Source: Minisyncoccota bacterium (GTDB taxonomy: Bacteria > Patescibacteriota > Minisyncoccia > Phycocordibacterales > UBA9973). Taken from it: a DNA stretch of 64,000 nucleotides. The notes beneath the pieces were generated by a model. That model searched no databases and had not been told where the DNA came from. It worked only from the letters and a program-made list of their open reading frames with translations. The translations under genes and the position numbers were made by a program. Numbering within the stretch: the first letter of the stretch is position 1; each line of letters starts with the position of its first letter. The stretch covers positions 479,515 through 543,514 of the forward strand of contig JBAZVG010000001.1 in assembly GCA_041661005.1 (NCBI GenBank), read 5' to 3'. Shown here in pieces: positions 13,948 through 45,156 of the stretch.

Positions 13948-14217
13948 TCATTTCACTTCATCCAAGATGATTTTTTCTGCTGCCTCCGGGTCAAATCTAT
14001 AATTATTCTCCAAATTTGTCTTTACTTCATTCGCTCTATCTATCGCATCTTGTCCTTTTTCGATTATATTCTTTCCATCCTTATCGCCAGTAAATAAATC
14101 CGTGCGTATAATAAAAGTGAAAATGATCACCAATCCGATCATAAGCAATAAAAGTCCTATGTATCCGCCGTTTAAGCTATTTTTGTTTTTTATATATACT
14201 ATGTATTCTTTGAACAT
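13948..14217 (-). CDS. small membrane protein
   Basis: 89 aa with one TM segment GGYIGLLLLMIGLVIIFTFII. Confidence 0.35.
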   Translation of the reverse strand: MFKEYIVYIKNKNSLNGGYIGLLLLMIGLVIIFTFIIRTDLFTGDKDGKNIIEKGQDAIDRANEVKTNLENNYRFDPEAAEKIILDEVK

Positions 14218-14446
14218 CTTGTCCTCTTATCTTAACCTTTGCGCGAACCTTTTTCGAGAATCAAATGAAGTAATGCGCACGCTCCGCGTGCATCATTTCT
14301 CGAAAGCAATTACTACGCTCTGATAATGTGGTAACTCAATGAACTCCGCCACGCGCGATTACGCGCGTCTGCCCTCGCCTCGCCACCGTTTCCATGCATA
14401 TATTATTTCGCGGGGGTTTCTTTTGATTTGGTATGGGTGGCGGGCG
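14218..14446. repeat. left terminal inverted repeat of island (GC-rich, about 229 bp)
   Basis: Plus strand here is the near-exact reverse complement of 25925-26152. Confidence 0.75.
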
Positions 14447-14940
14447 AGGTCAGGTTTCTTCAAAGAAGAAACGGCGAAATTCAAAATACAAATTCAAATC
14501 ATTGTCTCGGGCATTATACCATTTTTCTATTTTGGTGGTCACGCAAAGTTTTGAGGTGCACCCTCGGCATTCGCCTCGGGCATTTCCGCTAGGGCTACGA
14601 GTGCCTAGATGCCTATGAGCGGGCAAGCAAAATAACCGAACGGCTCAAATACCAGTAAATGAGCCGTTCACTCGATTGCCCGCAACTTCTTGGGGAGAGG
14701 AAGTTTCCTCTCCCCGGGTCGGGCTACTCTGGGATTACCCAGAGTTCTGCCCTCGCCATCCCCACTCTACGTTTTTCAATATTGTGTTTAGTGTGTAGCT
14801 TTCGCTTTCGAGAATGCATTTCAATTCGGGTCAGGCACTCGTCCTTTAGCCGTGGCCACCCTAGCGGAAATGCCCAAGGCGGAAAATGCAAATGCACTTG
14901 ACCCACCCACCCATTCGCGTGCAAATTTTCGCCGTGAGGA
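14446..14940 (+). ncRNA. GC-rich hairpin-dense noncoding segment (candidate structured RNA or recombination site region)
   Basis: GC far above the window average; nested hairpins gcgggcaa[gaacggctca..tgagccgttc]ttgcccgc, ggggagagg/cctctcccc and ctctggg/cccagag; long-range complement gggcatttccgctaggg (14579) with ccctagcggaaatgccc (14856). Confidence 0.3.
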
Positions 14941-14963
14941 AAAAGGGACGGCGACTCCCTTAT

Positions 14964-15131
14964 TTATAAATCATCTTTCAATTCAATAGCTTCTTCTTCG
15001 TCTAGTCCTTCCGTATCCATAATTTCTTTTACATGTTCAGCTTCATCTTGATCCAGTCCGTGATTTTCCATAAGTTCCACAACTTCTTCGTCAATTTCTT
15101 CTCCATTTTCATTTTTAATTTCTTCATCCAT
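14964..15131 (-). CDS. tiny highly acidic protein (55 aa, MDEEIKNENGEEIDEEVVELMENHGLDQDEAEHVKEIMDTEGLDEEEAIELKDDL)
   Basis: Manual translation of the minus strand; below the ORF-track size cutoff; last gene of the island operon. Confidence 0.25.
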   Translation of the reverse strand: MDEEIKNENGEEIDEEVVELMENHGLDQDEAEHVKEIMDTEGLDEEEAIELKDDL

Positions 15132-15135
15132 TTTT

Positions 15136-15804
15136 TTATATTTCAGAATAAAATACTGAATGCCCAGTTTTTCCGTTCTGTTTTATTTTTCCTTCTTTCT
15201 CTAATTGTGAAAGGTATCTAGTTGCAGTTGCATCAGACACATGCAAAAACTTTTCTACTTCGTCGTTGGTGACTCGTGGTGAGCTTGTCGAACCATTTTT
15301 ATTTTCAAACAAAGACATGACACGATCTAGTTTCTTTCTTTTTCTGAATTGAATCGCATTTCTAGCTGTGATTAGAAGTTCGCGAGCTAGATTAGATTTA
15401 GGTTGCTCACTCACAGGCTTCGCCTGTTCGTTTTGAGAAGTTTCCGGTTCTTTCAACGGCTCATTTACTGGTATTTGAGCCGTTGGAGGTTCAATAGCTT
15501 GGACGGGTTCAAAAACTGACTCAATTGAGGGTTCATTTGTCCCGTTAGAGGTAGGATTTGCTTGCATATCCGTTGGCTCTAATGGGATTGCTTCTTCTGG
15601 TGTAGGGGTAGAATTTGAGGGTGGTATATTAGTACTTTCATCACTAAAACCCTCCCTAGAAGCTTCCGGGGCTTCAGGAAGCACTTCGACAGGCTCGGAA
15701 TCTATGGGTGGAATAGGTGCATCAGCCATAGGCTCTTGGGGGCTTGGTGGAATAGAGTTTTCTTCGGGAATTGGTTTTTGGGTTGTATTTTGTTCGTCGG
15801 ACAT
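15136..15804 (-). CDS. Pro/Glu-rich disordered protein with C-terminal winged-HTH
   Basis: Low-complexity PEPS-rich N-terminal 150 aa; C-terminal VSDATATRYLSQLEKEGKIKQNGKTGHSVFY is wHTH-like. Confidence 0.4.
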   Translation of the reverse strand: MSDEQNTTQKPIPEENSIPPSPQEPMADAPIPPIDSEPVEVLPEAPEASREGFSDESTNIPPSNSTPTPEEAIPLEPTDMQANPTSNGTNEPSIESVFEPVQAIEPPTAQIPVNEPLKEPETSQNEQAKPVSEQPKSNLARELLITARNAIQFRKRKKLDRVMSLFENKNGSTSSPRVTNDEVEKFLHVSDATATRYLSQLEKEGKIKQNGKTGHSVFYSEI

Positions 15805-15805
15805 A

Positions 15806-16681
15806 TTATTTCCCTAATTCTTCTAAATTAATGAACGGATTGGTATATTCTATACCTTTTGGTATAAATCTAATTGATTCTTCATAACATTTTTTTGCTT
15901 CCTCTGGCTTACCCGTCTCAGCAAATAATACCCCAATATTATTATATATATTTGAGTAATGAAGATTAGACTTTAATACAAGATAAAAAGAACTAAAATA
16001 TGCTGGGAGTATGTAGCGATTCATTTCTTGGTCATCATGTAAAGCAACACCCATCATTGGGTTGTCTTGAACAATTTTTTGTGCAGTTTCTCCCGTAGGA
16101 AATCTAAGTGCTCTTACTCTATCTTTAATAGCATTTTTATGAGCAATCCTCGTAGCTAAATCTACCCATCCTTCCTCTTTCTCGCCAGTATAATTAAAAT
16201 CTCTTCCTTTTAAATTAGTAAATTGTAATGGCTCATTTTTAATCTCCTCATAAACTTTTTGTCCGAGTATTTCTAGTGCTGCGTTATAGTTTTTTAATGA
16301 ATTTACTGTGTCCCCATTTAGCTTATATGTTAATGCCAAACTATTTAGTGTATCCACTATTTGAGTTCGAGAGATATTTTCTTTAGTTTGAATTACTATT
16401 TCTAGATACTTAATTGCTTTTTTATATTCTCCTTTCGTCTGGTAAATAATACCTAACTCAAAATTTAACTGACTGGAATCAGGATATTTTGAAATAGCTT
16501 TTTGGCAAACTTCTTCTGATTTATCTAAACGTCCCAACTTACGATTAACATGGACTAAAAAATACCAATAATCCATATCATCAATATATTCTGACTTAAT
16601 CGATATTAAGAAACTTTCAGCGGTGGAATAATCTTTATTTTTTATATAGTACTCAAGTTGTTGATGGTGTGTATCTGTCAT
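15806..16681 (-). CDS. tetratricopeptide-repeat protein
   Basis: Repeated TPR-like helices (YWYFLVHVNRKLGRLDKSEEVCQKAI, NFELGIIYQTKGEYKKAIKYLE and others). Confidence 0.5.
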   Translation of the reverse strand: MTDTHHQQLEYYIKNKDYSTAESFLISIKSEYIDDMDYWYFLVHVNRKLGRLDKSEEVCQKAISKYPDSSQLNFELGIIYQTKGEYKKAIKYLEIVIQTKENISRTQIVDTLNSLALTYKLNGDTVNSLKNYNAALEILGQKVYEEIKNEPLQFTNLKGRDFNYTGEKEEGWVDLATRIAHKNAIKDRVRALRFPTGETAQKIVQDNPMMGVALHDDQEMNRYILPAYFSSFYLVLKSNLHYSNIYNNIGVLFAETGKPEEAKKCYEESIRFIPKGIEYTNPFINLEELGK

Positions 16682-16694
16682 AAATTATTTTTAT

Positions 16695-17153
16695 TTACAC
16701 AACTTCTCCTAAACTAGAAACAAAAACTCCGACCGGCTCTTTCACTATTTTTACCTCAGTGATTACTAACGGTATGAAATTCTCGTCTGTTTTTGAAGAC
16801 TTTTCAGGGTCGCCTAATTTGCAAGTAAGTGCTACTCCCTCAATTCTTAGTAATATTGGGGAATCAGAAAAATTAACAACAACTGGCTGATTAGTTTGTT
16901 TTTGTATTTGCTCAGTAAGCGCTAATTTATTAATAAGCTTAAACTCTTGAAAAATATATATAAACACTTTTAAAACTTCGTCATTAAAATTAAACGAGGC
17001 AACCATTCCATTTATGTTAGCTGTAATACTCGAAGTATGATCTGGATATAATATTAAATCTAATGGAACAAAACTATCCGTAATTACAATCTTTCCATTT
17101 TTGGGAAGCCCAGTGTCTTTTATAAAGGAACCAAAATCTTTTTTGAATATCAT
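16695..17153 (-). CDS. hypothetical protein
   Basis: 152-aa ORF tightly packed between the TPR and ATPase genes. Confidence 0.35.
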   Translation of the reverse strand: MIFKKDFGSFIKDTGLPKNGKIVITDSFVPLDLILYPDHTSSITANINGMVASFNFNDEVLKVFIYIFQEFKLINKLALTEQIQKQTNQPVVVNFSDSPILLRIEGVALTCKLGDPEKSSKTDENFIPLVITEVKIVKEPVGVFVSSLGEVV

Positions 17154-17189
17154 AATTTTTTTATTTGTAAATTATTTTTCATTAGTTCT

Positions 17190-19541
17190 TTAATAATTTA
17201 AAGAGTATAAATAATCCATCATCTCAGTAGCAAAATTACGAACATCTTCATCGTTATTTGAAGTGAAAATATGAGAATCAGAATTTAGATTATTCCTAAA
17301 CCCATGAAGTTTTGTTTTTACTTCTTCTTTTCCCTCAAAAATTCCATCAATCATTTTTTCTAAACTACTACAATCTACTTTTTTATCTTGTATCTGTTTA
17401 GCAAAGATAGTTGGAAGGTATAAATTTTCTAAAAATGGCCTTAAATCCGTTTTTATAGATTCAGATTGTGATCTATTTATAAACTCATAAATTTTCATAA
17501 AAACTTTTTCATAATCACTCATAGTGTATACATTTCGTTCCGACAAAACTAAAGAACTAGTTGCATCATCTTTTTTGATTTTTAGATACTTTGTTGTTAT
17601 CTGTGAATCTTTTGTAATTTCACAAAATCTTTTTATAAAATTAGGGTAATGAGTTAATATTATAATTTGACTGACTTGACTTATCGTTTCTTTAAAAAGA
17701 TTTATACTATAAGTGGTTCTATTGTCATCAAAACTCGTCATTGGGTCGTCTAATATAATTACCATTTTCTCTTTTTCTGCTTGTTCTTTTAAGTCTATTT
17801 TAACCCAAAAAATAGCTAAGGCTAAAGTGCGTCTGTCTGATTCACTAAACACAGATTTTAATTGATCGTTAGATATTTTTACATTATGAAATTTTACTTT
17901 CAAAGAGTAGACGGGCATGTGTCCCTGATTATTAGTATCTTTTTCAAGGGTAAAATTCTTACTTCCAAGTTTTTTAAATAAATCATTTATTTGAGTAAAG
18001 TAATTTACTAAATACTGAGATTGATCTCCCTCCAAACGACTTTCTAACACAGAAATTTCTGCCTCTGATATAGTAATTTCTTGTTGTATTTTTATGTAAT
18101 TAATACAATCTTGGTCTTGGTCAATTCTTGCCTTTTTATATTCTAATTCTTCAATTTCACTTATTAAAAAATCGACACCCTGCTGAATCGTTACGATATT
18201 TTCGTACTGTTTTTTAAAAGCTTTTATTTTTACCGAAAGTTCATCAATTATTTCTTTTATATTTATAAGGGATTGGTTATATTCAAGATATATTGTTTTA
18301 AAATGTGAAAAGTCAATAATGTCCACTCTCTTATATGGGCACTTACTTTTTAGATCTTGACTTGATTCTATGTTTTTTAATATTTTGCCTTTTTCAACAC
18401 TTAAATCCTCTTCTTGTAGTAAATCTATGTTTGTTTGTAGTTCAATCAATTTAGCTTGAAAAATTTCGTCGCTTATAAATTCTTTGTATTTATTGAATCC
18501 TATTAGAACAGTTTGTAAAATTGTTTTTTGAGCGAAGGTAAAATTTTCAATTTCTCTATTTTTGCTTTCTAATTCTTTGTCAATTCTACTTATAAAATCA
18601 TTGTAAACCTCATCGAAATATGAATCATAAATATTTATTAAATCTTGAGCATTATGAAGAAATTGACCACAAAACGGACAACCATCTTTTGTTCTATCCT
18701 TACAATAATGTAAGCCTGCTTTTATCCAATTTTCAGCGTTATCTTTAGAAGAAAAATTGTCAAATAAATGTTTATTTAGCTTTACTAATATATCTTCCTT
18801 AATACTTGAGTAGTCCTCTTGTAGTAAAGTATTTATCATTTCAAGTAATTCTATAATAGTAAAAGTTGGTAAATAAAATTCGTTTGGCTCCTGTAATTGC
18901 GATATCTTTTGTGGCTCCTTTAAACGTTCTTGTTCCTTCTGTAATGCGATTTTCTTTTGAGGCAAAATATTTTCAATATTATCTTTTTCTAACCCCACAA
19001 TAGAAAATTCCAAGAATTTTATGATTTCAATATCTATCTTATCTTTTACGAAATTTGGTACTTTTGTCTTTAATTCTCTTTTTTTATCTCCTGTTTCTTT
19101 TTTCTTTTTTGCAATTTCTTTTGCAAGTTTTACGCTTTGCTCTCCAAGAATAAACTGGGTAAAGTTTTCCTTGTTTTCTCTTCCAATATTTAAACCAGTA
19201 AATAAATTTTTATGAATAAAATCAGTGTCAAAAACCTCTAAATACTTTGACAGATCATTTTGGGTCCAATTATCATGTTCAAACATGATATCGTTTTCTA
19301 TCTCTTCTTTAACAGAAAAAACCACCTTCTGTTGTCCTGTCTGTGCTGGAATTGTTTTTCTATCTTGAATAATTTTAGGATCATTGTCTTTTAAAGATTG
19401 GAAAATATCTGTCAAAGTAGTTTTTCCATAAGTATTAAAACCATAGATAAAAGTTAGTTTTTCAAAACCCAAAGAAGCTCCATTTGTGAAATTGGAAAAT
19501 GTACCTATATTTTTAATTTCTTTAATGCGAGCTATTTTCAT
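17190..19541 (-). CDS. AAA_13 / RloC-like Rad50-type ABC ATPase with coiled-coil zinc hook and possible C-terminal anticodon-nuclease-like domain
   Basis: N-terminal KLTFIYGFNTYGKTTL Walker A in an SMC-like context; central coiled coil with CPFCGQ; Walker B IILDDP; H-loop ILTHY; C-terminal LRPFLE...KLHGF resembles an R-x3-E...H triad. Confidence 0.5.
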   Translation of the reverse strand: MKIARIKEIKNIGTFSNFTNGASLGFEKLTFIYGFNTYGKTTLTDIFQSLKDNDPKIIQDRKTIPAQTGQQKVVFSVKEEIENDIMFEHDNWTQNDLSKYLEVFDTDFIHKNLFTGLNIGRENKENFTQFILGEQSVKLAKEIAKKKKETGDKKRELKTKVPNFVKDKIDIEIIKFLEFSIVGLEKDNIENILPQKKIALQKEQERLKEPQKISQLQEPNEFYLPTFTIIELLEMINTLLQEDYSSIKEDILVKLNKHLFDNFSSKDNAENWIKAGLHYCKDRTKDGCPFCGQFLHNAQDLINIYDSYFDEVYNDFISRIDKELESKNREIENFTFAQKTILQTVLIGFNKYKEFISDEIFQAKLIELQTNIDLLQEEDLSVEKGKILKNIESSQDLKSKCPYKRVDIIDFSHFKTIYLEYNQSLINIKEIIDELSVKIKAFKKQYENIVTIQQGVDFLISEIEELEYKKARIDQDQDCINYIKIQQEITISEAEISVLESRLEGDQSQYLVNYFTQINDLFKKLGSKNFTLEKDTNNQGHMPVYSLKVKFHNVKISNDQLKSVFSESDRRTLALAIFWVKIDLKEQAEKEKMVIILDDPMTSFDDNRTTYSINLFKETISQVSQIIILTHYPNFIKRFCEITKDSQITTKYLKIKKDDATSSLVLSERNVYTMSDYEKVFMKIYEFINRSQSESIKTDLRPFLENLYLPTIFAKQIQDKKVDCSSLEKMIDGIFEGKEEVKTKLHGFRNNLNSDSHIFTSNNDEDVRNFATEMMDYLYSLNY

Positions 19542-19543
19542 AA

Positions 19544-21052
19544 TTATTCTTCCCCTTCACCCAATTCTAATCTTTTTATCTGCGGCAAGGCCACCAATCC
19601 ACTCAAATCACCATACATACCAACTGTATTAGTAATTACTTTTTTAATTTGTTTTTCTCTTTCTGACCAAATTTTTTCGTAAGCTAACCTTTCTTTCTTT
19701 AATCCGTTATCCATACCTGTAAAAGCTTCAACTATTGCTTCTACTCTTTGTTTAAACTCTATACCTGTTAAATAAGCGTAAAGTATTTCCATTTTATCAT
19801 TTTTACCAACGGACATTGTTTTTTCCCTTGTTACAGATTCTAAATTTACTCGCAAGGCAGTTGCAAGAGCTGTAGCAAGTTTTATGTCACAAATCCACAC
19901 ACCATCACGAAAACCAAAGCCTTTAATGTCTCCTGGTAGCGTGATAGAAACTATAACAGCAATTTCAGCCTTCATAATCCTTTGATCATCTTTTAATTTT
20001 TGTATCCATCCTTCACTCCATGCTTTGGTCTTTTTTGATTCCCACACAATTTGACCACAATATTTACCAGATTGATTCTGAACCTTTTGTATGATATCGG
20101 CTCCACTTACTCCTTTCGGAACTGGAGATATTTCATCAAAAGGAAATTCAGATCTTAAAAGATCCTCCAACTCAAGCTCCAACACTTCTCCTTGTGTTTG
20201 TTGTGAACCCTGTTCAAGCTTACGAGAAAGTTCGTCTTTTGCCTTAGTAGCATCAGTTAAACGTTTCTCTAGTTGTGCAATAATATACTTCTGTTCTTCA
20301 TTTGCTTTTTTACTAGCTTCCTCTATTATTTGTTTTCTTTCTATATCCAACTGTCTTTGTTTTTCTAACTCAAAGTTTTGTTTATCTTCTTCAAGTTTAT
20401 TTTTCTCTTTGCGCAAATCCAGCTCTTTTTTGTTTGCTTCTTTCAGTTTGATATCTTTCTCTTCTAATTGTTCCTGAAGTATTTTCTTGTCTGCTTCCTT
20501 TTCTTTTTCTGCCTCCTCTATTTGTTTTAATAATTTTATAGAATCTCTCTCGCTTTGTTTTACGGCACGAGCAAAAGCTTCTTGCTCTATCCCTTTACGC
20601 TCAGCATCGATTATTTTTGCTTTTTCCACCTCAAAATTTTTCTTTTCATCCTCAAATTTCTGCCTACTTGCACGAGCTTTTAAAGATTCAGTGTTTGCCT
20701 CATCCAACTTTTTATCTTTTTCTTTCATTTGTTCTTCTAACAACTTAACTTCAGCTGCTGTTTTCTTTTCAGCTGCTGTTTGTGCTTCTTTCCATAGTGT
20801 AATTTTTTCCACTGCAAGTTTTTCTGCCACTTTTTTACTGACTTCACTTTGTGTGTTTTTCTGTAATTCTTCCAATTTTATTTTTTGTTCTTCTATTTCT
20901 TTTCTCTCTTTTGCCATTTCTATTTCCTTTAGCTTGTTTTCTTCACTAATTTCCTTCTTTATATTTTCTTCAATTTGATGCGTTAATACATCATCAATTG
21001 ATATTGCTGTTTTACAATTGGGGCAGATAATATTTTTTGTATCGTTTTTCAT
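19544..21052 (-). CDS. DUF2130-like coiled-coil protein with N-terminal zinc ribbon and C-terminal PD-(D/E)xK-like domain
   Basis: CPNCK at the N-terminus; about 250 aa of K/E-rich coiled coil; C-terminal GADIIQ...IVWESKKTK. Confidence 0.45.
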   Translation of the reverse strand: MKNDTKNIICPNCKTAISIDDVLTHQIEENIKKEISEENKLKEIEMAKERKEIEEQKIKLEELQKNTQSEVSKKVAEKLAVEKITLWKEAQTAAEKKTAAEVKLLEEQMKEKDKKLDEANTESLKARASRQKFEDEKKNFEVEKAKIIDAERKGIEQEAFARAVKQSERDSIKLLKQIEEAEKEKEADKKILQEQLEEKDIKLKEANKKELDLRKEKNKLEEDKQNFELEKQRQLDIERKQIIEEASKKANEEQKYIIAQLEKRLTDATKAKDELSRKLEQGSQQTQGEVLELELEDLLRSEFPFDEISPVPKGVSGADIIQKVQNQSGKYCGQIVWESKKTKAWSEGWIQKLKDDQRIMKAEIAVIVSITLPGDIKGFGFRDGVWICDIKLATALATALRVNLESVTREKTMSVGKNDKMEILYAYLTGIEFKQRVEAIVEAFTGMDNGLKKERLAYEKIWSEREKQIKKVITNTVGMYGDLSGLVALPQIKRLELGEGEE

Positions 21053-21079
21053 ATTTTTTAATTTTATTAATAAATTTTC

Positions 21080-24000
21080 TTAAACTGCTTTTGTCCCACG
21101 ACAATAAGGAAACTTTGAACATCCATAAAATTTGCCTCTCCTTCCATTTCTTAAAATCATTTTTGATCCACAGCGCGGACAATCTTTATCAGAAAGTATT
21201 GGCACTGGTCTATCATTTCTCGAAATTCGAGATAGACCTTTACAAGTCTTGCAAAAGCGTCCGTAGCCACGGATTAGAGTTGGGTCTTTAAAATCAACTA
21301 AATCCCTTATCTCGCGACATTTTGGACATTCTTTTTTATCTCCATTGTGCAAGCCCTCAATCGTATTCTGAATACCGTTTAAAACAGCATTGTTTTGTGT
21401 GCGATAATTTTTAAACAAACTCGTGATTCTTTCATTAAGCGTTGTAACAGGGTTAGAACCAACATTGAATTTGTTAATTCGCAAGAATTTATATCCGTAA
21501 CTCTCCAAAACTTTCTGACGATAAACATCATCTTCAGAATAATAGTTTTCATAATTAAACTCATTTGCCTCGTCGAGATCGTTAAAATGTTCTGTAAATC
21601 CATCATACTCAATGATAATCTTGTGTTCTTTTTGGTTTTCATCTTTATACACAAGTAAAAAATCAACTTTATAGTGAGGATGTTTATAAGTCCTATCAAG
21701 TTGTTTTAGATATTTTCCAATTTCAAATTGAGGGAAGAATTCAATATTTTCTTTATTATTTTTCCAAAAATCTGTATCATAAAACCATTTTAAAACCTTA
21801 GGTTCCATTTTTGATTTTTGATCCACTTCAGAAATTTCGTGTTCTTTCTTCGCTTCCTCAAGAATAAAATTATAATGTCTTAAAGCATCTCCAATTGAAC
21901 CTGTAAATTTATCAAGTGGCTTACTAAGCACAAAGTGTACAGTTTCTTTAGCCCGACTAAATCCAACATTGAGGCGTTGAACTTTTATTTTTCCATCTTC
22001 CTCACTATCAACGCTATTAAAATCTTTTATAAAGACACCCCACAATCTATCAGAGTTTTCATTTGCAACCATCGAATAGAAAATAATATCTCGTTCTTCT
22101 CCCTGACAAGTATCAAAAGTCATTATTTTTAACTTCAGATTTTCAAAGTAAAAATCTCGTTCAGGTAATTTACTGATGGCCTCCATAAGCAATTTCTGCT
22201 GATTGGTGTGTGGCGTGATAATACCTACACTTTCGGTCTTGTTGTTTTCATACATTATCTTTAATTGTCCAACTATAAAATCAATCTCGGCTTTATTACT
22301 ATTTCCAACTAGCTCGTCTTTCCCGTCGTGGTCAACGAAACTAAATTTAACAACATCAGCAATTTTTTTACCCCTAATCTTCATTACTTGAAGACTGTCC
22401 TGATAAAAATACTTATTCGAGTAAGAAATAATTTCTTTGTATCCACGAAAATGTTTCAAAAGTTGCGTGTTGTAATTTGTTATAAATTCAAAAAATTCTA
22501 GTATTGAGGTCTTGATGTCAAATTTCCCAAGCTTCACTATTTTAGAATCTTCTTCTGATACTTGATCGCGAAATACTTGCGCCAAGGAATTTAAGTACTC
22601 CCGATTTGTTTCAGACCGAGCTTGTGCCGCCTTAATGTTACTGAATTGTTTTCTATCCCCGAGAATAAGCACCTTTTTCGCTCGAATCAAAGCGGGAAAA
22701 GCTTGTGCAATACTAACTTGTGATGCTTCATCAATAATAACCAAGTCAAAAAGTCCTGCATGCAAAGGAATGTATTCTGCGTAATCTCTGATTCCGGCAA
22801 GTATGCAAGGGAAAGCGTCTTTGAGTTTAAGAAATTGCTCTTTCGGAAACTTCATTTTATTTTTAATAACTTCTCTTAAAGTTTCCGCATCTGCTTTGTT
22901 GTTATTATAAAAATCAATAAGGCGAGTATCTAAAACATGAGTAACTTGCGTAGTTACCAAAGTTTCCAACTCTTTCTTCTGTCCCATATAACTCAATGTC
23001 GGGATTAACCCGAATTTAGCAACTATGGAACCCTTAAGTATTGCGTAGCGTGTTGCTTTATCAAAGTCCAAGCTAGTCATTTTAACAAGCTTGCTGTCTA
23101 ACATTTCTGAAAAATTGTCTTTCGAGATTTTTAACTTTTTTATTGAATGAGGGTATGAATCTAATTCTTGCAAGAGCGATAAAAAGTCCGTCTCGAGAGA
23201 AAGTACCTTTTCTTTATTTTCACTAAAATTACTACCCGTCAATATTAGTTTAGATAAAATTTCAATATGATCAATCCCCAAATGTGAAATTGTTTTTGCT
23301 TGCTCTTTTAAGGCATTATAATAATCACAAATCTCTATAACTCGTTTAAAGTTTTTTATATTTTCATTAGGATTTTGAAAATCTGACAACGGAAATAGTT
23401 CCCTAAATGAGTTATTTAAAGTCTGAACCTTAGAACTGCTGAACAGGTATCCAAAAATAGGTATTCTGGTTTCATCATAAGATCGAGTCCACTTTTTGAG
23501 CTCGTTTAAGTCTTTGTGAGAAAAAACTTTGAAACGAGATAGTATCTGAACATCTTGATTAAATTTCAAAGAGACATCTTCCACAATTTGATAATAAGCG
23601 GTAAGAATACGTAATGTGTCTAAAAACATCTCACTACTTTTTAATGTTTCTAGTTTTACATTCAATATTTCTGATAAGTAATCGTTTTTAAGAATGTCGG
23701 GCAAAGATAATAATAAAGACCTTAGATCATCGAAAAAGACGACAGCGTTTTCATTCTCGGATAACTCATCAAGATCAAAATCATATTGCCTTGAAGAATA
23801 AAATTCCTCTAGCCCACAAAATTCAGTTATTTCCCGAAGATCAATATCAGAATACGCTAATGCTTCTACTTCAATATCTTCTTTCAAAGAATTCGATAAT
23901 TTGGAAATATTTTCCTCAATCGAAGAATAATCTTTTTGTACTGCTCTATGGTGAGTTTTAATTTTTTCTATAGAAGACTTTGCAAGAATTTGACCATAAG

Positions 24001-25642
24001 TATTCCCTGTTTTTCCAAGCCTTAAAATTGGATTTTGAAAATTCTCCTCATCAAAACGAACTCTATTCATAGTTTCAGTTATCTTGTCCTCAACAACATC
24101 AAGTGCTTCTTTTTTATCAGAAAGTACAAGTACTGATTGATGATTAAGAATTGCATCAAATATAATTGCGGTGATCGTATGACTTTTACCCGTACCCGGA
24201 GGGCCTTCAACTGTTATATATTTGCATCCATCTTTTCTTATTGCTGACAATATCTGTATTTGTTCACTGTTAAGAGGAATCGGGCTTGTTGAGACAAGTT
24301 TATCGGGAACCGATGTATCATCCCACTCCCTTTCAACTTCAGGATTTATAGGCTTTGGATTTTTGTGAATAAAATCATCAACTAATATGTTGAATATCTT
24401 GGCAAGTTCTCCTTCTCCATTACTTAGCTGTTGCAAGATTTCCTCATAGTCATTTACAAGGGCTTCATCTGATTTATCAAATAACGAAAGATACACTGAG
24501 TTAGAAGTTCTAACGCTTAGGCTTTTTGCTTGTTGGGGGTCTTTTGAATCAAGGTCAATATTTTTATTTAACCCAAAAAGATTTGTGATTTCATTAAGAA
24601 TTTTTTCAAGTGTATCATTAACACGCTCTGTTTCTTGCGATAAATAAATAATGCGTTCAGTAATACTTTTAAGATTACCCTTTGCACCAGTTTCTTTGTT
24701 GTACTCTTGCACAATAAACTCAAGAGCTTTTTTGTTTATGTATATTTGAGAATCAAATTCAATATGAAATATATCGTTATCCCTCTTTAGAGAAAATGGT
24801 GTATAAAAGATTGGATATTTTACTTTATTAAAACTAATATCGCAGAAATAAAGATAGAATTCTTGTTTATCTAAAATTGCTCTGTTTTTATCAATTTCAA
24901 AAAGTTCGCTGAACAAATCTCCGACTTGAAACGACTCAAAAAAGTTTGTGATAGTGTTTTTTGTATCATTTAAGTCAATAACTGATTTAAGCTCTTTTTG
25001 AATATTAACTTTCTGTTTAGAAATTAAAACTTTCAAAAGTTCAGAAACTTTATTTTCGGTGATATTTAAAAAAACTTCGGCTAGCTCTTCTTCCATTAAA
25101 AATATATCGTTCTCGTCGCCAATACCAAGACTTTCTATTGATTTTTCAATACTACTGACAAATGGAAGGACTAGGAATGTTTTGATATGTAATGAAACTG
25201 CTTCAAGGGTTATGGTCAAAGCCTTCTCGTATTCTTTTGAATACAGGGTCGCTGATTTTTCAAGATCATCAGTTATGGCATTAATTAACTCATTGATTTG
25301 AGAACTTTGAATTTTACCAACTTGCAAAGTTATTAGATCTAAAAGATTTTTTGGAAGATTACTACGATATACTCCTTTACTGATTGTACTTAAAACACTC
25401 TTGTCAAAACCGTGAGTAACTAATTTCCATATATCCTTTGTGAAAGATGGATATTTTGAAAGATTTATGCCGACAAGCAAATTATCGTTAGTTCTATATT
25501 TGACTGATCGTTTTGGATTTTTTCTCTTATGAAAATCTGTCTCAAGAAAATCCATGAAATACTTAGCAACCTCTTTAACAAAGGCGAGATTGCCAGTAAG
25601 GCTAGTGTCTAATCTTTTTTCTTGTGAATTATTTTCATTCAT
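21080..25642 (-). CDS. SF1 (Upf1/Dna2-like, AAA_11/AAA_12) helicase fused to DUF559/Vsr-like endonuclease and topoisomerase-type C4 zinc ribbon; N-terminal DUF4011-like region
   Basis: GPPGTGKSHT, DLVIIDEASQ, LILGDRKQ, TFDTCQGEERDIIFYS; KVDFLLVY..IIIEYDGFTEHF..YGYKFLRIN; CPRCGSKMILRNGRRGKFYGCSKFPYC. Confidence 0.65.
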   Translation of the reverse strand: MNENNSQEKRLDTSLTGNLAFVKEVAKYFMDFLETDFHKRKNPKRSVKYRTNDNLLVGINLSKYPSFTKDIWKLVTHGFDKSVLSTISKGVYRSNLPKNLLDLITLQVGKIQSSQINELINAITDDLEKSATLYSKEYEKALTITLEAVSLHIKTFLVLPFVSSIEKSIESLGIGDENDIFLMEEELAEVFLNITENKVSELLKVLISKQKVNIQKELKSVIDLNDTKNTITNFFESFQVGDLFSELFEIDKNRAILDKQEFYLYFCDISFNKVKYPIFYTPFSLKRDNDIFHIEFDSQIYINKKALEFIVQEYNKETGAKGNLKSITERIIYLSQETERVNDTLEKILNEITNLFGLNKNIDLDSKDPQQAKSLSVRTSNSVYLSLFDKSDEALVNDYEEILQQLSNGEGELAKIFNILVDDFIHKNPKPINPEVEREWDDTSVPDKLVSTSPIPLNSEQIQILSAIRKDGCKYITVEGPPGTGKSHTITAIIFDAILNHQSVLVLSDKKEALDVVEDKITETMNRVRFDEENFQNPILRLGKTGNTYGQILAKSSIEKIKTHHRAVQKDYSSIEENISKLSNSLKEDIEVEALAYSDIDLREITEFCGLEEFYSSRQYDFDLDELSENENAVVFFDDLRSLLLSLPDILKNDYLSEILNVKLETLKSSEMFLDTLRILTAYYQIVEDVSLKFNQDVQILSRFKVFSHKDLNELKKWTRSYDETRIPIFGYLFSSSKVQTLNNSFRELFPLSDFQNPNENIKNFKRVIEICDYYNALKEQAKTISHLGIDHIEILSKLILTGSNFSENKEKVLSLETDFLSLLQELDSYPHSIKKLKISKDNFSEMLDSKLVKMTSLDFDKATRYAILKGSIVAKFGLIPTLSYMGQKKELETLVTTQVTHVLDTRLIDFYNNNKADAETLREVIKNKMKFPKEQFLKLKDAFPCILAGIRDYAEYIPLHAGLFDLVIIDEASQVSIAQAFPALIRAKKVLILGDRKQFSNIKAAQARSETNREYLNSLAQVFRDQVSEEDSKIVKLGKFDIKTSILEFFEFITNYNTQLLKHFRGYKEIISYSNKYFYQDSLQVMKIRGKKIADVVKFSFVDHDGKDELVGNSNKAEIDFIVGQLKIMYENNKTESVGIITPHTNQQKLLMEAISKLPERDFYFENLKLKIMTFDTCQGEERDIIFYSMVANENSDRLWGVFIKDFNSVDSEEDGKIKVQRLNVGFSRAKETVHFVLSKPLDKFTGSIGDALRHYNFILEEAKKEHEISEVDQKSKMEPKVLKWFYDTDFWKNNKENIEFFPQFEIGKYLKQLDRTYKHPHYKVDFLLVYKDENQKEHKIIIEYDGFTEHFNDLDEANEFNYENYYSEDDVYRQKVLESYGYKFLRINKFNVGSNPVTTLNERITSLFKNYRTQNNAVLNGIQNTIEGLHNGDKKECPKCREIRDLVDFKDPTLIRGYGRFCKTCKGLSRISRNDRPVPILSDKDCPRCGSKMILRNGRRGKFYGCSKFPYCRGTKAV

Positions 25643-25646
25643 AAGT

Positions 25647-25853
25647 TTATTTCAAAAGTTCATTAGTAGAAACATTTAATGCTTTTGCTAACTTTGCAAT
25701 TGTCGAAAGCGTTGGGTTTGTTTTGCCACTTTCAATATTACTAATAAAACCACGACTAACACCAAGGGAACGAAAAATATCGCCTTGCGTTAAGCCCTTG
25801 CTGATTCTGATGCGTTTCATGTTTTTGCCAAGCTTTACCGACTCAGTTTTCAT
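25647..25853 (-). CDS. XRE-family HTH transcriptional regulator
   Basis: LTQGDIFRSLGVSRGFISNIESGKTNP HTH_3 motif; start taken at the internal Met (MKTES), because the 5' extension runs into the inverted repeat. Confidence 0.6.
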   Translation of the reverse strand: MKTESVKLGKNMKRIRISKGLTQGDIFRSLGVSRGFISNIESGKTNPTLSTIAKLAKALNVSTNELLK

Positions 25854-25877
25854 TATCCACAGTATAGCTCTTGCTAC

Positions 25878-25886
25878 ATTATACCA
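25878..25886 (-). promoter_or_regulatory. extended -10 element TGgTATAAT upstream of the XRE gene
   Basis: Reverse complement reads tgtggtataat about 25 nt upstream of the ATG. Confidence 0.4.
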
Positions 25887-25924
25887 CAATATTATATTAT
25901 AATGTAATAGATGGAATATACCCA

Positions 25925-26152
25925 TCGCCCGCCACCCATACCAAATCAAAAGAAACCCCCGCGAAATAATATATGCATGGAAACGGTGGCGAGGCGAGGG
26001 CAGACGCGCGTAATCGCGCGTGGCGGAGTTCATTGAGTTACCACATTATCAGAGCGTAGTAATTACTTTCGAGAAATGATGCACGCGGAGCGTGCGCATT
26101 ACTTCATTTGATTCTCGAAAAAGGTTCGCGCAAAGGTTAAGATAAGAGGACA
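25925..26152. repeat. right terminal inverted repeat of island
   Basis: Reverse complement matches 14218-14446. Confidence 0.75.
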
Positions 26153-26164
26153 AATTGAGACATC

Positions 26165-26265
26165 AGTGAAAAAATCGGTCGCGCGCTTGCGCGCAATAAT
26201 GGAAAGGGGGTGGGCGAATTCCGAACCCATCTTCTCCGCAAATGCGAATTCGGTGGGTGGGCAAG
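26165..26265. repeat. inverted repeat copy flanking the recombinase gene (partner 27735-27835)
   Basis: Reverse complement of ttgcccacccaccgaattcgcatttgcggagaag...ccattattgcgcgcaagcgcgcgacc is present at 27735-27835. Confidence 0.65.
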
Positions 26266-26320
26266 AAAACAGAAATGAGCCAGACACGAATTCTTCTTTT
26301 TTTATAATCTAAAAACAAAT

Positions 26321-27871
26321 ATGAACAAACCAAAATATTTTCTATACGCGCGAAAGTCAACGGAAGATGACGACAAACAAGTCATGAGTATTGAAGCTCA
26401 ACTTTTTGAGCTTCGTGAATTCGCGCGTAAAGAAAATCTGCAAATTCTTGAGGAATTTACAGAATCAAAAAGCGCAAAGAAACCTGGTCGTGAAAAATTC
26501 AGCGTGATGATGGGTAAAATTGAAAGTATGGACGGTGTAGGTATTCTCGCTTGGCATCCGGATCGTTTAGCGAGAAATAGTATTGACGGTGGACGCATCA
26601 TTTACGCTGTGGACACTACCAAAATAGTTTCTTTACGCTTTCCAACATTTTGGTTTGAACCCACCCCGCAAGGGCTGTTTATGTTGCAAGTGGCGTTCGG
26701 GCAATCCAAGTATTATTCCGACAACCTCAAGCAAAATGTTGAGCGAGGAATCCGCCAAAAATTAAGACGTGGCGAATGGCTAGCCTTGGCTCCTCGTGGC
26801 TTTGTGAATAATCCAAAAACAAAAAATATTGAACCCGATCCGGTGGTGGCAAGAATAATTGTGCAAGCATATAAAGAATTCGCCACGGGAAAACATAATT
26901 TTCCAACGCTTTCAAAATTTTTGGCGGATTTAGGCATGGTCGGAAAAAATGGAACGCCACTTTACAAATCTGCCGTCAGTAATTTGCTTTCCAATAAAGC
27001 ATACATCGGTTTGGTAAAGCATAAAAATGAATGGCATGCCGGCAGTTTTACGCCAATTATTTCTCCCGATTTATTTGAAGCCGTGCAGAAACGTTTGAAA
27101 GAACGAGCAAGGCCTCGCAAAACAAAAGTTGGACACAATTTTCCTTTTACTGGACTTTTTCGTTGTGGTGAATGTAATTGTATGATTTCAGCACAATGGG
27201 CGAAAGGTCGCGGAGGTTTGTACCGGTATTATCGCTGTACGAAAAAAGCAGGAGAAAATTGTTCACAAGGATATTTGCAAGAAAAATTGCTCGTCTCTCA
27301 AGTAAAGGAACGACTTCAACAAATCGCACTTCCCGACGAATGGACCAACTGGATGCTGAAACAAACTGACACATGGGAAAAAGAAGAAAAGTTTTCGTCG
27401 GGAAGTAATCTCGGACAAATCAAAGACGATGAGCAAGTAATACAGCAAAAGCTCGACGATTTAATTACGCTTTATCTCGATGGCGATATTCCGAAAGAAA
27501 ATTATCTCGCCAAAAAGGACGAGCTTTTGCTGAAAAAAGTCTCGCTCACGAAAAAAATTGATTCTGCCCGACACGAGAGAAATAATTGGGTCGAACCCTT
27601 GCGGGAATGGATTTTAGATATGAAAAAAGGTGCCGAATTGGTTTCGTCTTCCGATTTTTACGAAATTCGTGATTATTTGAAAAAAATCGGAACGAACCCT
27701 CGGATGCACGACAAATCCGTCTCTGTCTCATTTTGCCCACCCACCGAATTCGCATTTGCGGAGAAGACGGGTTCGAAATTCGCCCACCCCCTTTCCATTA
27801 TTGCGCGCAAGCGCGCGACCGATTTTTTCGCTGAAGTTTCGTCTTGTCCGCCTGCTACGATTCGAACGTAG
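26321..27871 (+). CDS. large serine recombinase (site-specific integrase/invertase)
   Basis: N-terminal resolvase catalytic domain YARKSTEDDDKQVMSIEAQ, recombinase domain, zinc ribbon CGECNC..YYRC and coiled coil; 516 aa; the 3' end overlaps tRNA-Ile. Confidence 0.7.
   Translation: MNKPKYFLYARKSTEDDDKQVMSIEAQLFELREFARKENLQILEEFTESKSAKKPGREKFSVMMGKIESMDGVGILAWHPDRLARNSIDGGRIIYAVDTTKIVSLRFPTFWFEPTPQGLFMLQVAFGQSKYYSDNLKQNVERGIRQKLRRGEWLALAPRGFVNNPKTKNIEPDPVVARIIVQAYKEFATGKHNFPTLSKFLADLGMVGKNGTPLYKSAVSNLLSNKAYIGLVKHKNEWHAGSFTPIISPDLFEAVQKRLKERARPRKTKVGHNFPFTGLFRCGECNCMISAQWAKGRGGLYRYYRCTKKAGENCSQGYLQEKLLVSQVKERLQQIALPDEWTNWMLKQTDTWEKEEKFSSGSNLGQIKDDEQVIQQKLDDLITLYLDGDIPKENYLAKKDELLLKKVSLTKKIDSARHERNNWVEPLREWILDMKKGAELVSSSDFYEIRDYLKKIGTNPRMHDKSVSVSFCPPTEFAFAEKTGSKFAHPLSIIARKRATDFFAEVSSCPPATIRT
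27735..27835. repeat. inverted repeat copy (partner of 26165-26265); encodes the C-terminus of the recombinase
   Basis: See the partner repeat at 26165-26265. Confidence 0.65.
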
Positions 27872-27920
27872 GACCCTCTAGGTATAAGCTAGATGCTCTA
27901 ACCAACTGAGCTACAGGCGG
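27847..27920 (-). tRNA. tRNA-Ile(UAU)
   Basis: Reverse complement CCGCCTG-TA-GCTC-AGTTGGTTA-GAGC-A-TCTAG-CTTATAC-CTAGA-GGGTC-CTACG-TTCGAAT-CGTAG-CAGGCGG-A; Ile-type D-arm; anticodon TAT. Confidence 0.65.
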
Positions 27921-45041: not shown

Positions 45042-45053
45042 TCTAAAAAAATA

Positions 45054-45140: not shown

Positions 45141-45156
45141 TATGTTTTATTTTTTT

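What the first reader, a model, noticed from the sequence alone, without database searches (positions are those of the whole stretch)
14446..14940. GC-rich, hairpin-dense 500-bp segment inside the island left end: candidate structured ncRNA
This segment has a sharp local rise in GC, with nested perfect stems (gcgggcaa...ttgcccgc enclosing gaacggctca/tgagccgttc, plus ggggagagg/cctctcccc and ctctggg/cccagag). It also has a 17-nt long-range complement (14579-14595 with 14856-14872). It contains only short mutually overlapping ORFs, so it is unlikely to be coding. It lies where an inward-reading transcript from the left IR would run, and the IR carries promoter-like sequence on its partner copy. 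It could be a regulatory or guide-like RNA for the adjacent system, or recombination sites.
Basis: seen in the sequence. Interest (0 to 1): 0.55.

Follow-up and report, generated by a model that had tools for sequence, protein, structure and literature searches.

The report
New structured RNA in Paceibacteria islands
The GC-rich, hairpin-dense stretch is one copy of a previously uncatalogued ~365-nt structured RNA that ends the gene cassette of a recombinase-associated, inverted-repeat-bounded genomic island found in hundreds of Paceibacteria (candidate phyla radiation) genomes; what the RNA does is still unknown.

Summary
Window 14446-14940 has 49.9% GC against 36.7% for the window (99.8th percentile), and all the named stems exist. 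It folds far better than shuffles (z -8.9 on the + strand, -10.2 on the - strand).

It is not a local oddity. The 23-nt arm of its closing helix occurs in 79 species genomes and more than 120 metagenome contigs, nearly all Paceibacteria. A 64-sequence alignment shows real covariation: 97.4% of cells paired, and 19 pairs changed on both sides against 11.8 in shuffles.

Wobble-pair bias (183 G-U against 27 A-C) and gene context place the RNA on the minus strand (about 14912 to 14545). A co-directional ORF ends just upstream in 74 of 83 copies.

It belongs to the island backbone: a cassette bounded by inverted repeat IR1, next to a large serine recombinase bounded by IR2. It does not belong to the variable cargo. 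No Rfam family matches it.

Function is inferred only. My best guess is a processed, stable operon-terminal RNA that also carries the binding site for the island's winged-helix protein. It is not a guide RNA, an inverton or a MITE.

The parts
14545..14912 (-). Structured RNA domain. This is the window's single copy of the family, and its 5' and 3' ends pair with each other.
   Evidence: An nhmmer profile of alignment A1 hits 14912-14545 on the minus strand (E 9e-116), and it is the only full copy in 64 kb. Fold z is -10.2. Covariation is shown.
14859..14881 (-). P1 closing helix, 5' arm (CGCCUUGGGCAUUUCCGCUAGGG).
   Evidence: Pairs with 14572-14594. It matches a 23-mer found in 79 species genomes and more than 120 metagenome contigs. 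Protein-seeded loci show compensatory changes in this helix.
14572..14594 (-). P1 closing helix, 3' arm.
   Evidence: One-sided changes in this helix are mostly G-U on this strand.
14834..14842 (-). P1b helix, 5' arm. It pairs with 14597-14605.
   Evidence: The pair at alignment columns 101-402 (alignment A1) switches between U-A (44 sequences) and C-G (17 sequences).
14797..14806 (-). Small conserved hairpin with a GNRA tetraloop (AGC-GAAA-GCU).
   Evidence: Nearly invariant in alignment A1 and in the divergent group C (GAAA or GGAA loop).
14726..14745 (-). Hypervariable hairpin. The sequence varies freely but pairing is kept.
   Evidence: All 7 pairs show changes on both sides, in 14 to 31 of 64 sequences. 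Loops include UAAU and UUCG. No match elsewhere in its locus.
14692..14715 (-). Near-invariant 10-bp hairpin (GGGGAGAGGA-AACU-UCCUCUCCCC).
   Evidence: Group C carries a compensated variant, GGGGGGAG/CUCCCCCC.
14619..14683 (-). P5 helix (GCGGGC/GCCCGC) and its optional extension.
   Evidence: All 6 pairs show changes on both sides. The extension is absent in the ~335-nt copies.
14639..14668 (.). 9-N12-9 palindrome AACGGCTCA-N12-TGAGCCGTT at the tip of P5. Candidate binding site of the winged-helix protein.
   Evidence: A perfect reverse-complement copy lies at 15455-15484. Its presence tracks a winged-helix gene upstream: 39 copies have both, 43 have neither, 7 are discordant. The half-site occurs nowhere else in the 64 kb.
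15455..15484 (.). Second copy of the palindrome, inside the winged-helix ORF. It encodes the invariant TAQ...NEPL motif.
14513..14521 (-). Extended -10 element (TGGTATAAT) immediately 3' of the RNA, reading outward into IR1-L.
   Evidence: It is conserved in most group A copies.
14219..14447 (.). IR1, left arm.
   Evidence: 229 nt with one mismatch to 25925-26153. Homologous IR pairs flank cassettes in many other loci.
25925..26153 (.). IR1, right arm.
14964..15131 (-). 55-aa acidic protein gene, optional. It is the last gene before the RNA.
   Evidence: Homologues occur in 14 loci.
15136..15804 (-). Gene for a 222-aa protein with a disordered N-terminus and a C-terminal winged helix.
   Evidence: Weak Pfam HTH_24 and MarR hits. 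1722 homologue clusters, none annotated with a function. The AlphaFold model has residues 1-137 disordered and 138-222 as a helix plus winged helix. The fold resembles both MarR/ArsR regulators and ribosomal protein eS25.
25647..25865 (-). XRE-family HTH gene, the first gene of the cassette operon.
   Evidence: Pfam HTH_3. Homologues occur in 28 loci.
26148..26264 (.). IR2, left arm.
   Evidence: 117 nt, 93% complementary to 27733-27849. Equivalent IR2 pairs flank the recombinase gene in other loci.
26321..27871 (+). Large serine recombinase gene.
   Evidence: Pfam Resolvase, Recombinase and Zn_ribbon_recom. PHROG integrase family.
27733..27849 (.). IR2, right arm. It abuts the 3' end of tRNA-Ile(TAT) at 27846-27920.

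Best explanation
The segment encodes a ~365-nt structured RNA on the minus strand (about 14912 to 14545) that belongs to a new, widespread family in Paceibacteria.

**Shown**
- The fold is conserved. A long closing helix (P0/P1/P1b) pairs the 5' and 3' ends. It encloses a multi-branch core: a GNRA hairpin, a hypervariable hairpin, a near-invariant 10-bp hairpin, and helix P5.
- The RNA is a fixed backbone part of one kind of genomic island. In that island a cassette of variable cargo lies between long inverted repeats (IR1), next to a large serine recombinase gene that has its own inverted repeats (IR2).
- The RNA always follows the last co-directional gene of the cassette. It lies 55-250 nt inside the IR1 arm that is opposite the XRE end.

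**Inferred**
- The RNA is transcribed as the tail of the cassette operon.
- Its paired ends allow it to be cut out or protected. It would then persist as a stable, compactly folded RNA that marks and insulates the end of the operon, just before a conserved outward promoter and the IR junction.
- The optional tip of P5 carries a 9-N12-9 palindrome that is the binding site of the island's winged-helix protein. A second copy lies inside that protein's own gene, which suggests feedback control.
- The RNA is far better conserved than the recombinase and does not co-diverge with it. Its partner is therefore more likely a conserved host factor, or its own fold, than a particular recombinase or cargo system.

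The exact molecular role is the least certain step.
For: **Structure**
- Fold z-scores are -8.9 and -10.2.
- 97.4% of cells are paired against 92.4% in shuffles and 35-48% in slid controls.
- 19 pairs changed on both sides against 11.8 in shuffles (0 of 500 shuffles reach this).
- Per-helix covariation is seen in P1b, P3, the hypervariable hairpin and P5.
- P1 shows compensatory changes in loci retrieved by protein rather than by the RNA sequence.

**RNA rather than DNA, and which strand**
- 183 G-U against 27 A-C in the same helices.
- GNRA and UUCG loops are present.
- A co-directional ORF ends less than 400 nt upstream in 74 of 83 copies, with a median gap of 62 nt. Only 7 have a divergent ORF.

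**Distribution**
- 79 species genomes and more than 120 metagenome contigs.
- Homology spans window 14219-15805.

**Backbone, not cargo**
- Three of the four cargo genes tested (TPR, unk152, AAA_13, DUF2130; the helicase is counted separately) match none of the 199 loci; the helicase matches 5. The winged-helix gene matches 80, XRE 28 and the recombinase 31.
- The double-IR layout recurs.
- Loci seeded by the recombinase (L214, L216) and by the winged-helix protein (L204, L206, L210/211, L213) all contain the RNA in the same position.

**Palindrome and winged-helix link**
- 39 copies have both, 43 have neither, 7 are discordant.

**Other**
- The outward -10 element is conserved.
- RNA identity is 72-92% while recombinase identity is 32-72%, with Spearman rho 0.07.
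- No Rfam family matches.
Against: - There are no transcription data, so the ends, the processing and the abundance of the RNA are all inferred.
- No canonical promoter lies directly upstream and no U-tract terminator follows the closing helix.
- Many junction nucleotides are invariant. A plain 3'-end stabiliser or insulator would not need that.
- One closely related island (L202) works without the RNA.
- The retrieval was seeded on an exact 23-mer of P1, so the near-invariance of P1 in alignment A1 is partly an ascertainment effect.
- The count of structure pairs shuffle control does not correct for phylogeny.
- The winged-helix fold matches both DNA-binding regulators and an RNA-binding ribosomal protein. 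Whether the palindrome is read as DNA or as an RNA hairpin is open.
Confidence: 0.55

Rival explanations
1. It is a trans-acting, complex-folded RNA whose operon-tail position is only its mode of expression. It would be a large orphan non-coding RNA carried by a mobile element, in the manner of ROOL, GOLLD or OLE. It would act through a conserved host machine or as a ribonucleoprotein or ribozyme.
For: - Long stretches of unpaired junction sequence are invariant.
- The RNA is 72-92% identical between islands whose recombinases are only 32-72% identical, and the two do not co-diverge (rho 0.07).
- The core is kept across three size classes and whatever the cargo.
- The paired ends fit a stable, excised RNA.
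Against: - No partner has been identified.
- Nothing matches in Rfam.
- Its fixed position, 55-250 nt from the IR arm and directly before a conserved outward -10 element, suggests a role in cis.
- L202 lacks it.
Confidence: 0.28
2. It is a single-stranded-DNA element rather than an RNA. It would be a folded recombination or replication site at the 3' end of the cassette, analogous to an integron attC site or a single-strand origin.
For: - It sits at the 3' end of a variable cassette.
- Its ends are conserved inverted repeats around a variable centre.
- Pairing is strand-biased.
- IS110 and IS200 family elements have inserted into it in L040 and L065. Some IS110-family elements are known to target attC sites (general knowledge).
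Against: - The backbone has no tyrosine integrase, relaxase or rolling-circle Rep protein.
- Large serine recombinases act on double-stranded sites (established knowledge).
- At ~365 nt it is several times the size of an attC site.
- GNRA and UUCG tetraloops and conserved junctions are RNA hallmarks.
- There is one element per island, not one per gene.
Confidence: 0.08
3. It is a small invertible DNA switch (an inverton). The 23-bp arms would be recombinase sites flanking a ~270-nt invertible segment.
For: - 23-bp inverted repeats flank 264-370 bp.
- A serine recombinase is encoded nearby.
- Both arms are highly conserved.
Against: - The interior has the same orientation as both flanks in 76 of 76 and 46 of 46 comparisons.
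- The interior hairpins covary.
- The wobble bias favours one strand.
Confidence: 0.03
4. It is a guide or regulatory RNA for the neighbouring defence genes (AAA_13/PDC-S06, DUF2130, helicase-nuclease). Alternatively it is a MITE-like selfish repeat.
For: - It lies next to defence-type cargo.
- It has terminal inverted repeats.
- Some metagenome-assembled genomes carry it on up to three contigs.
Against: - Cargo differs from locus to locus while the RNA stays.
- The variable hairpin has no target match in its locus.
- The context is always the same.
- The window holds only one copy.
- Covariation implies selection on the fold.
Confidence: 0.03

Closest known systems
Large orphan bacterial non-coding RNAs carried by mobile elements or prophages (ROOL, GOLLD, HEARO, OLE class)
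   Same: - Several hundred nucleotides long.
- A multi-helix fold supported by covariation, with conserved junctions.
- Associated with mobile DNA.
- Function not evident from the sequence.
   Different: - No sequence or structure match to any of them (Rfam covariance-model scans).
- Restricted to Paceibacteria.
- Fixed position at the tail of a cassette between inverted repeats, next to a large serine recombinase.
Integron attC sites
   Same: - Lies at the 3' end of an exchangeable cassette.
- Conserved inverted ends around a variable centre.
- Strand-specific folding.
- Hit by IS110-family insertions.
   Different: - About 365 nt against 57-141 nt.
- One per island rather than one per gene.
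- No IntI tyrosine integrase.
- RNA-type tetraloops.
- No R/L core boxes.
Transposon-end guide-RNA scaffolds (omega/reRNA of TnpB and IscB; IS110 bridge RNA)
   Same: A structured RNA encoded at the edge of a mobile unit, downstream of or beside a backbone gene.
   Different: - The backbone has no TnpB, IscB or DEDD recombinase.
- The RNA is separated from the island boundary by a promoter and a 229-bp repeat.
- Its variable part is a closed stem, not an open guide loop, and has no local target.
End-paired processing and stability stems (the stems flanking rRNA, T7 early mRNA RNase III sites, lambda sib)
   Same: A long helix formed by the two ends of a transcript segment. That is the form expected for excision or protection by double-strand-specific RNases.
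   Different: Those are simple stems. Here the stem encloses a conserved ~270-nt multi-branch core. No cleavage has been shown.

Membership tests
Any Rfam 15 family (including GOLLD, ROOL, HEARO, OLE, raiA, group I/II introns, RNase P, 6S, tmRNA, SRP) | The covariance-model score reaches the family's gathering threshold. | tested here: not met
   There is no hit at gathering threshold in the window apart from 4 tRNAs. At E<=10 on 14100-15200 only chance-level hits appear. Eleven other loci containing copies of the RNA give none at E<=1.
Inverton (invertible DNA switch) | Short inverted repeats flank a segment of 50-750 bp, with a recombinase gene nearby. | tested here: met
   23-bp arms lie 264-372 bp apart (outer ends) in all but one of 54 loci; L065 has a 920-bp span caused by an IS200 insertion. 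A serine recombinase gene is on the island.
Inverton (invertible DNA switch) | The segment is found in both orientations relative to its flanks. | tested here: not met
   The orientation is the same in 76 of 76 (right flank) and 46 of 46 (left flank) comparisons. Assemblies could miss a minor orientation.
Integron attC site | An imperfect palindrome of 57-141 bp with R''/L''-L'/R' core boxes, recombined by an IntI tyrosine integrase. | tested here: not met
   The element is ~365 nt. The Pfam annotation of the island shows no tyrosine recombinase. The only recombinase is of the serine type.
TnpB/IscB omega RNA or IS110 bridge RNA | Encoded beside its cognate TnpB, IscB or DEDD recombinase gene at the element's end. 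| tested here: not met
   No such gene is present in the island or among the conserved backbone genes. The IS110 gene in L040 is a secondary insertion that splits the RNA.
Retron msr-msd RNA | An adjacent reverse transcriptase gene, with a1/a2 repeats flanking msr-msd. | tested here: not met
   The window's island has no reverse transcriptase. RT genes occur as cargo in only 10 of 199 loci and at varying distances.
Intrinsic terminator | A GC-rich hairpin followed directly by a U tract. | tested here: not met
   The scan reports no terminator-like site on the minus strand at the 3' end of the RNA. The sequence after the closing helix is A-rich.
MITE or selfish repeat | Many copies in unrelated contexts, with no selection on the internal fold. 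| tested here: not met
   The window holds one copy. The context is always the same. Internal stems covary.
Structured non-coding RNA (generic) | A conserved secondary structure supported by compensatory changes, with strand-specific wobble pairs. | tested here: met
Structured non-coding RNA (generic) | Transcribed, with defined ends. | not testable with these tools
   No transcriptome data are available. Only indirect support exists, from gene orientation.

The most novel reading that the evidence does not exclude
The RNA is an active component of the island's DNA rearrangement or exchange machinery. It could be an RNA cofactor or sensor that sets when or in which direction the serine recombinase inverts or moves the IR-bounded cassette. 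Alternatively it could be a folded nucleic-acid site at which cargo cassettes are swapped. Either would be a first case of a large structured RNA working with a large-serine-recombinase element.
Probability: 0.1. Interest if true: 0.9.

Novelty: new variant of a known kind. Interest (0 to 1): 0.66.

Why it matters
- **A new large RNA class.** Structured bacterial RNAs longer than 300 nt are rare, and each new class has opened new biology. This one is abundant: hundreds of loci carry it, and the linked protein family has more than 1,700 clusters.
- **An understudied lineage.** It occurs in the candidate phyla radiation, where almost no non-coding RNAs have been described.
- **An undescribed island type.** The RNA marks an island made of two adjoining segments, each bounded by inverted repeats. 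One segment holds a large serine recombinase. The other holds exchangeable cargo, which is defence genes in some loci and metabolic genes in others. The cargo segment is found in both orientations.
- **Practical uses.** The RNA and its 23-nt arm give a simple handle for finding these islands and their cargo in metagenomes. They also explain a recurrent point where Paceibacteria assemblies break.

Tried and rejected
- **Viral contigs.** Scans with the 30-nt hairpin found nothing. A 17-mer of P1 gave two hits (L001, L002), both in coding regions of unrelated, higher-GC contigs. These are chance hits.
- **Phage and plasmid collections.** No similarity.
- **Exact-protein look-ups.** The window's winged-helix and recombinase sequences were not on record.
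- **Kissing-loop or antisense pairing between the two palindrome copies.** The loops are perfectly complementary in the window but not consistently so elsewhere. Rejected as a conserved interaction.
- **Pairing of the RNA with the recombinase's translation start.** The first attempt timed out. The second gave no consistent or significant duplex in 14 loci.
- **Guide hypothesis.** The variable hairpin has no 11-mer match elsewhere in its locus beyond the control rate.
- **Inverton hypothesis.** No flipped interiors were found.
- **IR1 as a conserved structured RNA.** IR1 folds well in the window (z about -4.5). The 22-sequence alignment gives only a weak consensus with no covariation. Left undecided.
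- **Inward promoter in IR1.** Not conserved.
- **Co-evolution of RNA and recombinase.** None (rho 0.07).
- **Structure of the winged-helix protein.** It is a generic winged helix, matching both MarR/ArsR regulators and ribosomal protein eS25. This does not decide between DNA and RNA binding.
- **Literature.** Six searches found no description of this RNA or island.
- **Covariance model.** A model of the whole RNA was not built, because the tool refuses calibration of models much beyond ~190 positions.
Full report
**1. The observation**

The window is an AT-rich genome (36.7% GC) of a Paceibacteria-type bacterium. The exact winged-helix protein of the window is on record from an 813-kb 'Candidatus Paceibacterota' contig.

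Positions 14446-14940 have 49.9% GC, the 99.8th percentile of windows of that size, and the GC maximum of the whole 64 kb lies here.

The long-range complement is really 23 nt: 14572-14594 with 14859-14881, with one mismatch. It continues through internal loops to about 14548/14912.

The region folds far better than dinucleotide shuffles. The plus strand gives -162 kcal/mol (z -8.9) and the minus strand gives -176.5 kcal/mol (z -10.2).

The region lies in a 740-nt gene-free gap. On one side is a small membrane-protein ORF (13948-14217, minus). On the other is a 55-aa acidic ORF (14964-15131, minus).

**2. It is one copy of a widespread conserved element**

Rfam gives nothing here, either at gathering threshold or at E<=10.

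I scanned public collections for the 23-nt helix arm CGCCTYGGGCATTTCCGCTAGGG. In 54 loci two inverted copies lie 264-372 nt apart, apart from one locus (L065, 920 nt) split by an IS200 insertion.

Almost all the named genomes are Paceibacteria lineages: Nomurabacteria, Kaiserbacteria, Yonathbacteria, Taylorbacteria, Zambryskibacteria and Minisyncoccia. Many contigs are labelled 'uncultured Candidatus Saccharibacteria', and two are assigned to a Woesearchaeota archaeon and to Thermodesulfovibrionales.

BLAST against these loci shows that homology covers the whole of 14219-15805. That span is the IR, the GC-rich segment, the acidic ORF and the 222-aa ORF. Identity reaches 93%.

Nothing similar occurs in IMG/VR viral contigs, phage records or plasmid records.

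**3. It is a structured RNA on the minus strand**

I collected 104 distinct copies, 52-94% identical to the window's. They fall into three size classes: about 335, 372 and 435 nt.

A 64-sequence alignment (A1) gives the following consensus fold:
- a long closing helix P1 (21-23 bp), extended by P1b
- a small GNRA hairpin
- a three-way region carrying a hairpin whose sequence is hypervariable but always paired
- a near-invariant 10-bp hairpin
- helix P5

With that structure, 97.4% of cells pair. Column shuffles give 92.4%, and slid-partner controls give 35-48%. Nineteen pairs show changes on both sides, against 11.8 in shuffles, and none of 500 shuffles reaches that number.

All 7 pairs of the variable hairpin and all 6 pairs of P5 covary. 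One P1b pair switches between U-A (44 sequences) and C-G (17 sequences).

P1 looks invariant in this set, but the set was seeded on P1. In loci retrieved through proteins instead, P1 shows compensated changes: C-G to A-T in L204 and G-C to T-A in L216.

The divergent ~435-nt class keeps the same core and has a compensated variant of the 10-bp hairpin.

Three lines of evidence give the strand:
- In the shared helices there are 183 G-U pairs in the minus-strand reading. Only 27 positions are A-C, which would be G-U on the plus strand.
- GNRA and UUCG tetraloops occur.
- In 74 of 83 copies with enough flank, an ORF of at least 90 aa on the same strand ends within 400 nt upstream, with a median gap of 62 nt. 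Only 7 copies have a divergent ORF there.

So the RNA is the tail of the preceding operon and reads outward towards the IR. The promoter-like site inside the IR is not conserved.

A profile search finds exactly one copy in the window, at 14912-14545 on the minus strand.

**4. What it belongs to**

tblastn of the window's island proteins against 199 related loci gave the following:

| Protein | Loci with a homologue |
|---|---|
| 222-aa winged-helix protein | 80 |
| Large serine recombinase | 31 |
| XRE regulator | 28 |
| 55-aa acidic protein | 14 |
| SF1 helicase-nuclease (cargo) | 5 |
| TPR, 152-aa unknown, AAA_13/PDC-S06, DUF2130 (cargo) | 0 |

Cargo elsewhere includes type I restriction-modification systems, methyltransferases and reverse transcriptases. 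In some loci it is metabolic genes.

Self-comparison of the loci shows a recurrent layout of two adjoining inverted-repeat pairs:
- IR2 (115-177 bp) brackets the ~1.45-kb recombinase gene.
- IR1 (80-508 bp as seen; arms are often cut off at contig ends) abuts or slightly overlaps IR2 and brackets a cassette of 3-11 kb.

The two arms of a pair are mostly 90-100% identical within a locus. Between loci they are only about 67-93% identical.

The window has exactly this layout. IR1 is 14219-14447 with 25925-26153. IR2 is 26148-26264 with 27733-27849. Next to IR2 is tRNA-Ile(TAT).

The RNA always sits 55-250 nt inside the IR1 arm that lies opposite the XRE end.

The cassette is found in both orientations relative to the recombinase. 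The RNA end is next to the recombinase in L103, L124, L137, L114, L159, L149 and L150. It is far from the recombinase in the window and in L089, L101, L119, L143, L180, L211, L214 and L216. The IR1 segment has therefore inverted repeatedly, at least over evolutionary time.

Loci retrieved independently of the RNA confirm the association:
- Four of five contexts seeded by the winged-helix protein contain the RNA in the expected place.
- Both informative contexts seeded by the recombinase do as well.

The exception is L202. It is a close relative at the same recG-tRNA-Ile site, with 88-92% nucleotide identity in the flanks. It has lost the RNA and the acidic ORF together with XRE, the second IR1 arm, IR2 and the recombinase.

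**5. The palindrome and the winged-helix protein**

The tip of P5 carries AACGGCTCA-N12-TGAGCCGTT (14639-14668). A perfect reverse-complement copy lies inside the winged-helix ORF (15455-15484).

Across 65 loci both copies exist. The arms are almost invariant and the spacers vary. The spacers are not consistently complementary between the two copies, so a conserved kissing interaction is unlikely. Some loci add a third half-site one 21-nt period away.

Whether an RNA copy has the palindrome tracks whether a winged-helix gene lies just upstream: 39 have both, 43 have neither and 7 are discordant. The half-site occurs nowhere else in the 64 kb.

In the protein the arms encode the only invariant residues (TAQ...NEPL) of an otherwise disordered N-terminal half.

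The C-terminal 85 residues model confidently as a helix plus a winged helix. That fold resembles both MarR/ArsR regulators and ribosomal protein eS25.

I read the palindrome as this protein's binding site. It is an optional accessory grafted onto the RNA. Whether it is read as DNA or as an RNA hairpin is unresolved.

**6. Rivals that were tested**

- **Inverton.** The interior has the same orientation as both flanks in all 122 comparisons.
- **Guide RNA.** The variable hairpin has no match in its own locus above the control rate. No conserved pairing with the recombinase start region was found.
- **Recombinase cofactor.** RNA identity (72-92%) does not track recombinase identity (32-72%). Spearman rho is 0.07 over 153 pairs. 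A lineage-specific partnership is therefore unlikely.
- **MITE.** There is a single copy per window, the context is fixed and the stems covary.
- **Single-stranded-DNA site of the attC type.** This is not excluded, but it is disfavoured by the size, the RNA-type loops and the absence of a tyrosine integrase, relaxase or Rep protein.

**7. Most likely mechanism**

Shown:
- the fold
- the strand
- the position at the operon tail
- membership of the island backbone
- the link between the palindrome and the winged-helix gene
- a conserved extended -10 element (TGGTATAAT, 14521-14513 on the minus strand) directly after the RNA, reading outward into IR1

Inferred:
- The RNA is made as the end of the cassette transcript.
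- The pairing of its two ends lets it be excised or protected. It then persists as a compact RNA that defines and insulates the end of the operon before the outward promoter and the IR junction.
- Its strong sequence conservation, independent of cargo and of recombinase lineage, points to a conserved host partner or to an intrinsic structural role.

I put about 0.55 on this package. Most of that weight rests on the identity and context, and much less on the specific insulator and stability role. I put about 0.28 on a mainly trans-acting RNA of the ROOL/GOLLD kind.

**8. Novelty**

No Rfam family matches the window's copy or the copies in eleven other loci. Six full-text literature searches found no description of the RNA or of the double-inverted-repeat serine-recombinase island.

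It is a new family within the known category of large structured RNAs carried on mobile DNA. No new mechanism has been demonstrated.

Noticed in passing
window 14219-27849: The whole island has a recurrent architecture that I could not find described. IR1 (229 bp) brackets an 11.5-kb one-strand cassette running from XRE to the RNA. Directly abutting it, IR2 (117 bp, 93%) brackets the large serine recombinase gene, next to tRNA-Ile(TAT). The same double-IR layout occurs in many Paceibacteria loci, and the arms are 90-100% identical within a locus.
   Followed up: partly
window 14219-14224, 26148-26153, 27844-27849: The hexamer GGACAA/TTGTCC sits at all three outer or junction ends of the IR arms. 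The third copy overlaps the last bases of tRNA-Ile. It may be the recombinase crossover core.
   Followed up: no
window 14896-14920 (minus), 26244-26266 (plus), 27731-27753 (minus): A G-rich motif (GCGAAT..GGTGGGTGGG.CAAG) lies at the inner end of both IR2 arms, just upstream of the recombinase start. A near-copy lies just 5' of the RNA. Related GGGAGGGYGGGY-AAG motifs precede the RNA and the recombinase genes in other loci.
   Followed up: partly
L040:509-1582 and L065:2642-3076: Mobile elements have inserted into the RNA gene in other genomes. An IS110-family transposase element splits the P1 arm in L040. An IS200-type TnpA lies between the P1 arms in L065.
   Followed up: partly
L202:10004-10938: A closely related island at the same recG-tRNA-Ile site carries a type I restriction-modification cargo. 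It keeps the winged-helix gene and one IR1 arm. It lacks the RNA, the acidic ORF, XRE, the second IR1 arm, IR2 and the recombinase. It looks like an immobilised remnant.
   Followed up: partly
window 26321-27871 and homologues P0121-P0240: The recombinase ORF runs through IR2-R and overlaps the tRNA gene by about 25 nt. Many homologues sit on contigs of only 1.7-2.3 kb, meaning assemblies break at IR2. This fits either inversion polymorphism or multiple copies.
   Followed up: no
window 17190-25642: The cargo of this island looks like defence genes. They are an AAA_13 protein matching PADLOC candidate PDC-S06 (E 3e-193), a DUF2130 protein, and a 1520-aa SF1 helicase with a REase-like domain and a Zn-ribbon domain that matches the Mokosh and PDC-S37 models.
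   Followed up: partly
window 45050-45148, 45784-45882, 53362-53459: Three copies (92-98% identical) of a ~98-nt repeat with its own terminal inverted repeats. Two are direct and one is inverted. No Rfam match.
   Followed up: partly
window 25866-25924: The unique stretch between XRE and IR1-R holds back-to-back promoter-like sites. One is an extended -10 element (TGGTATAAT) facing XRE. The other is TTGCTA...TATTAT facing outward through IR1-R towards the recombinase.
   Followed up: no
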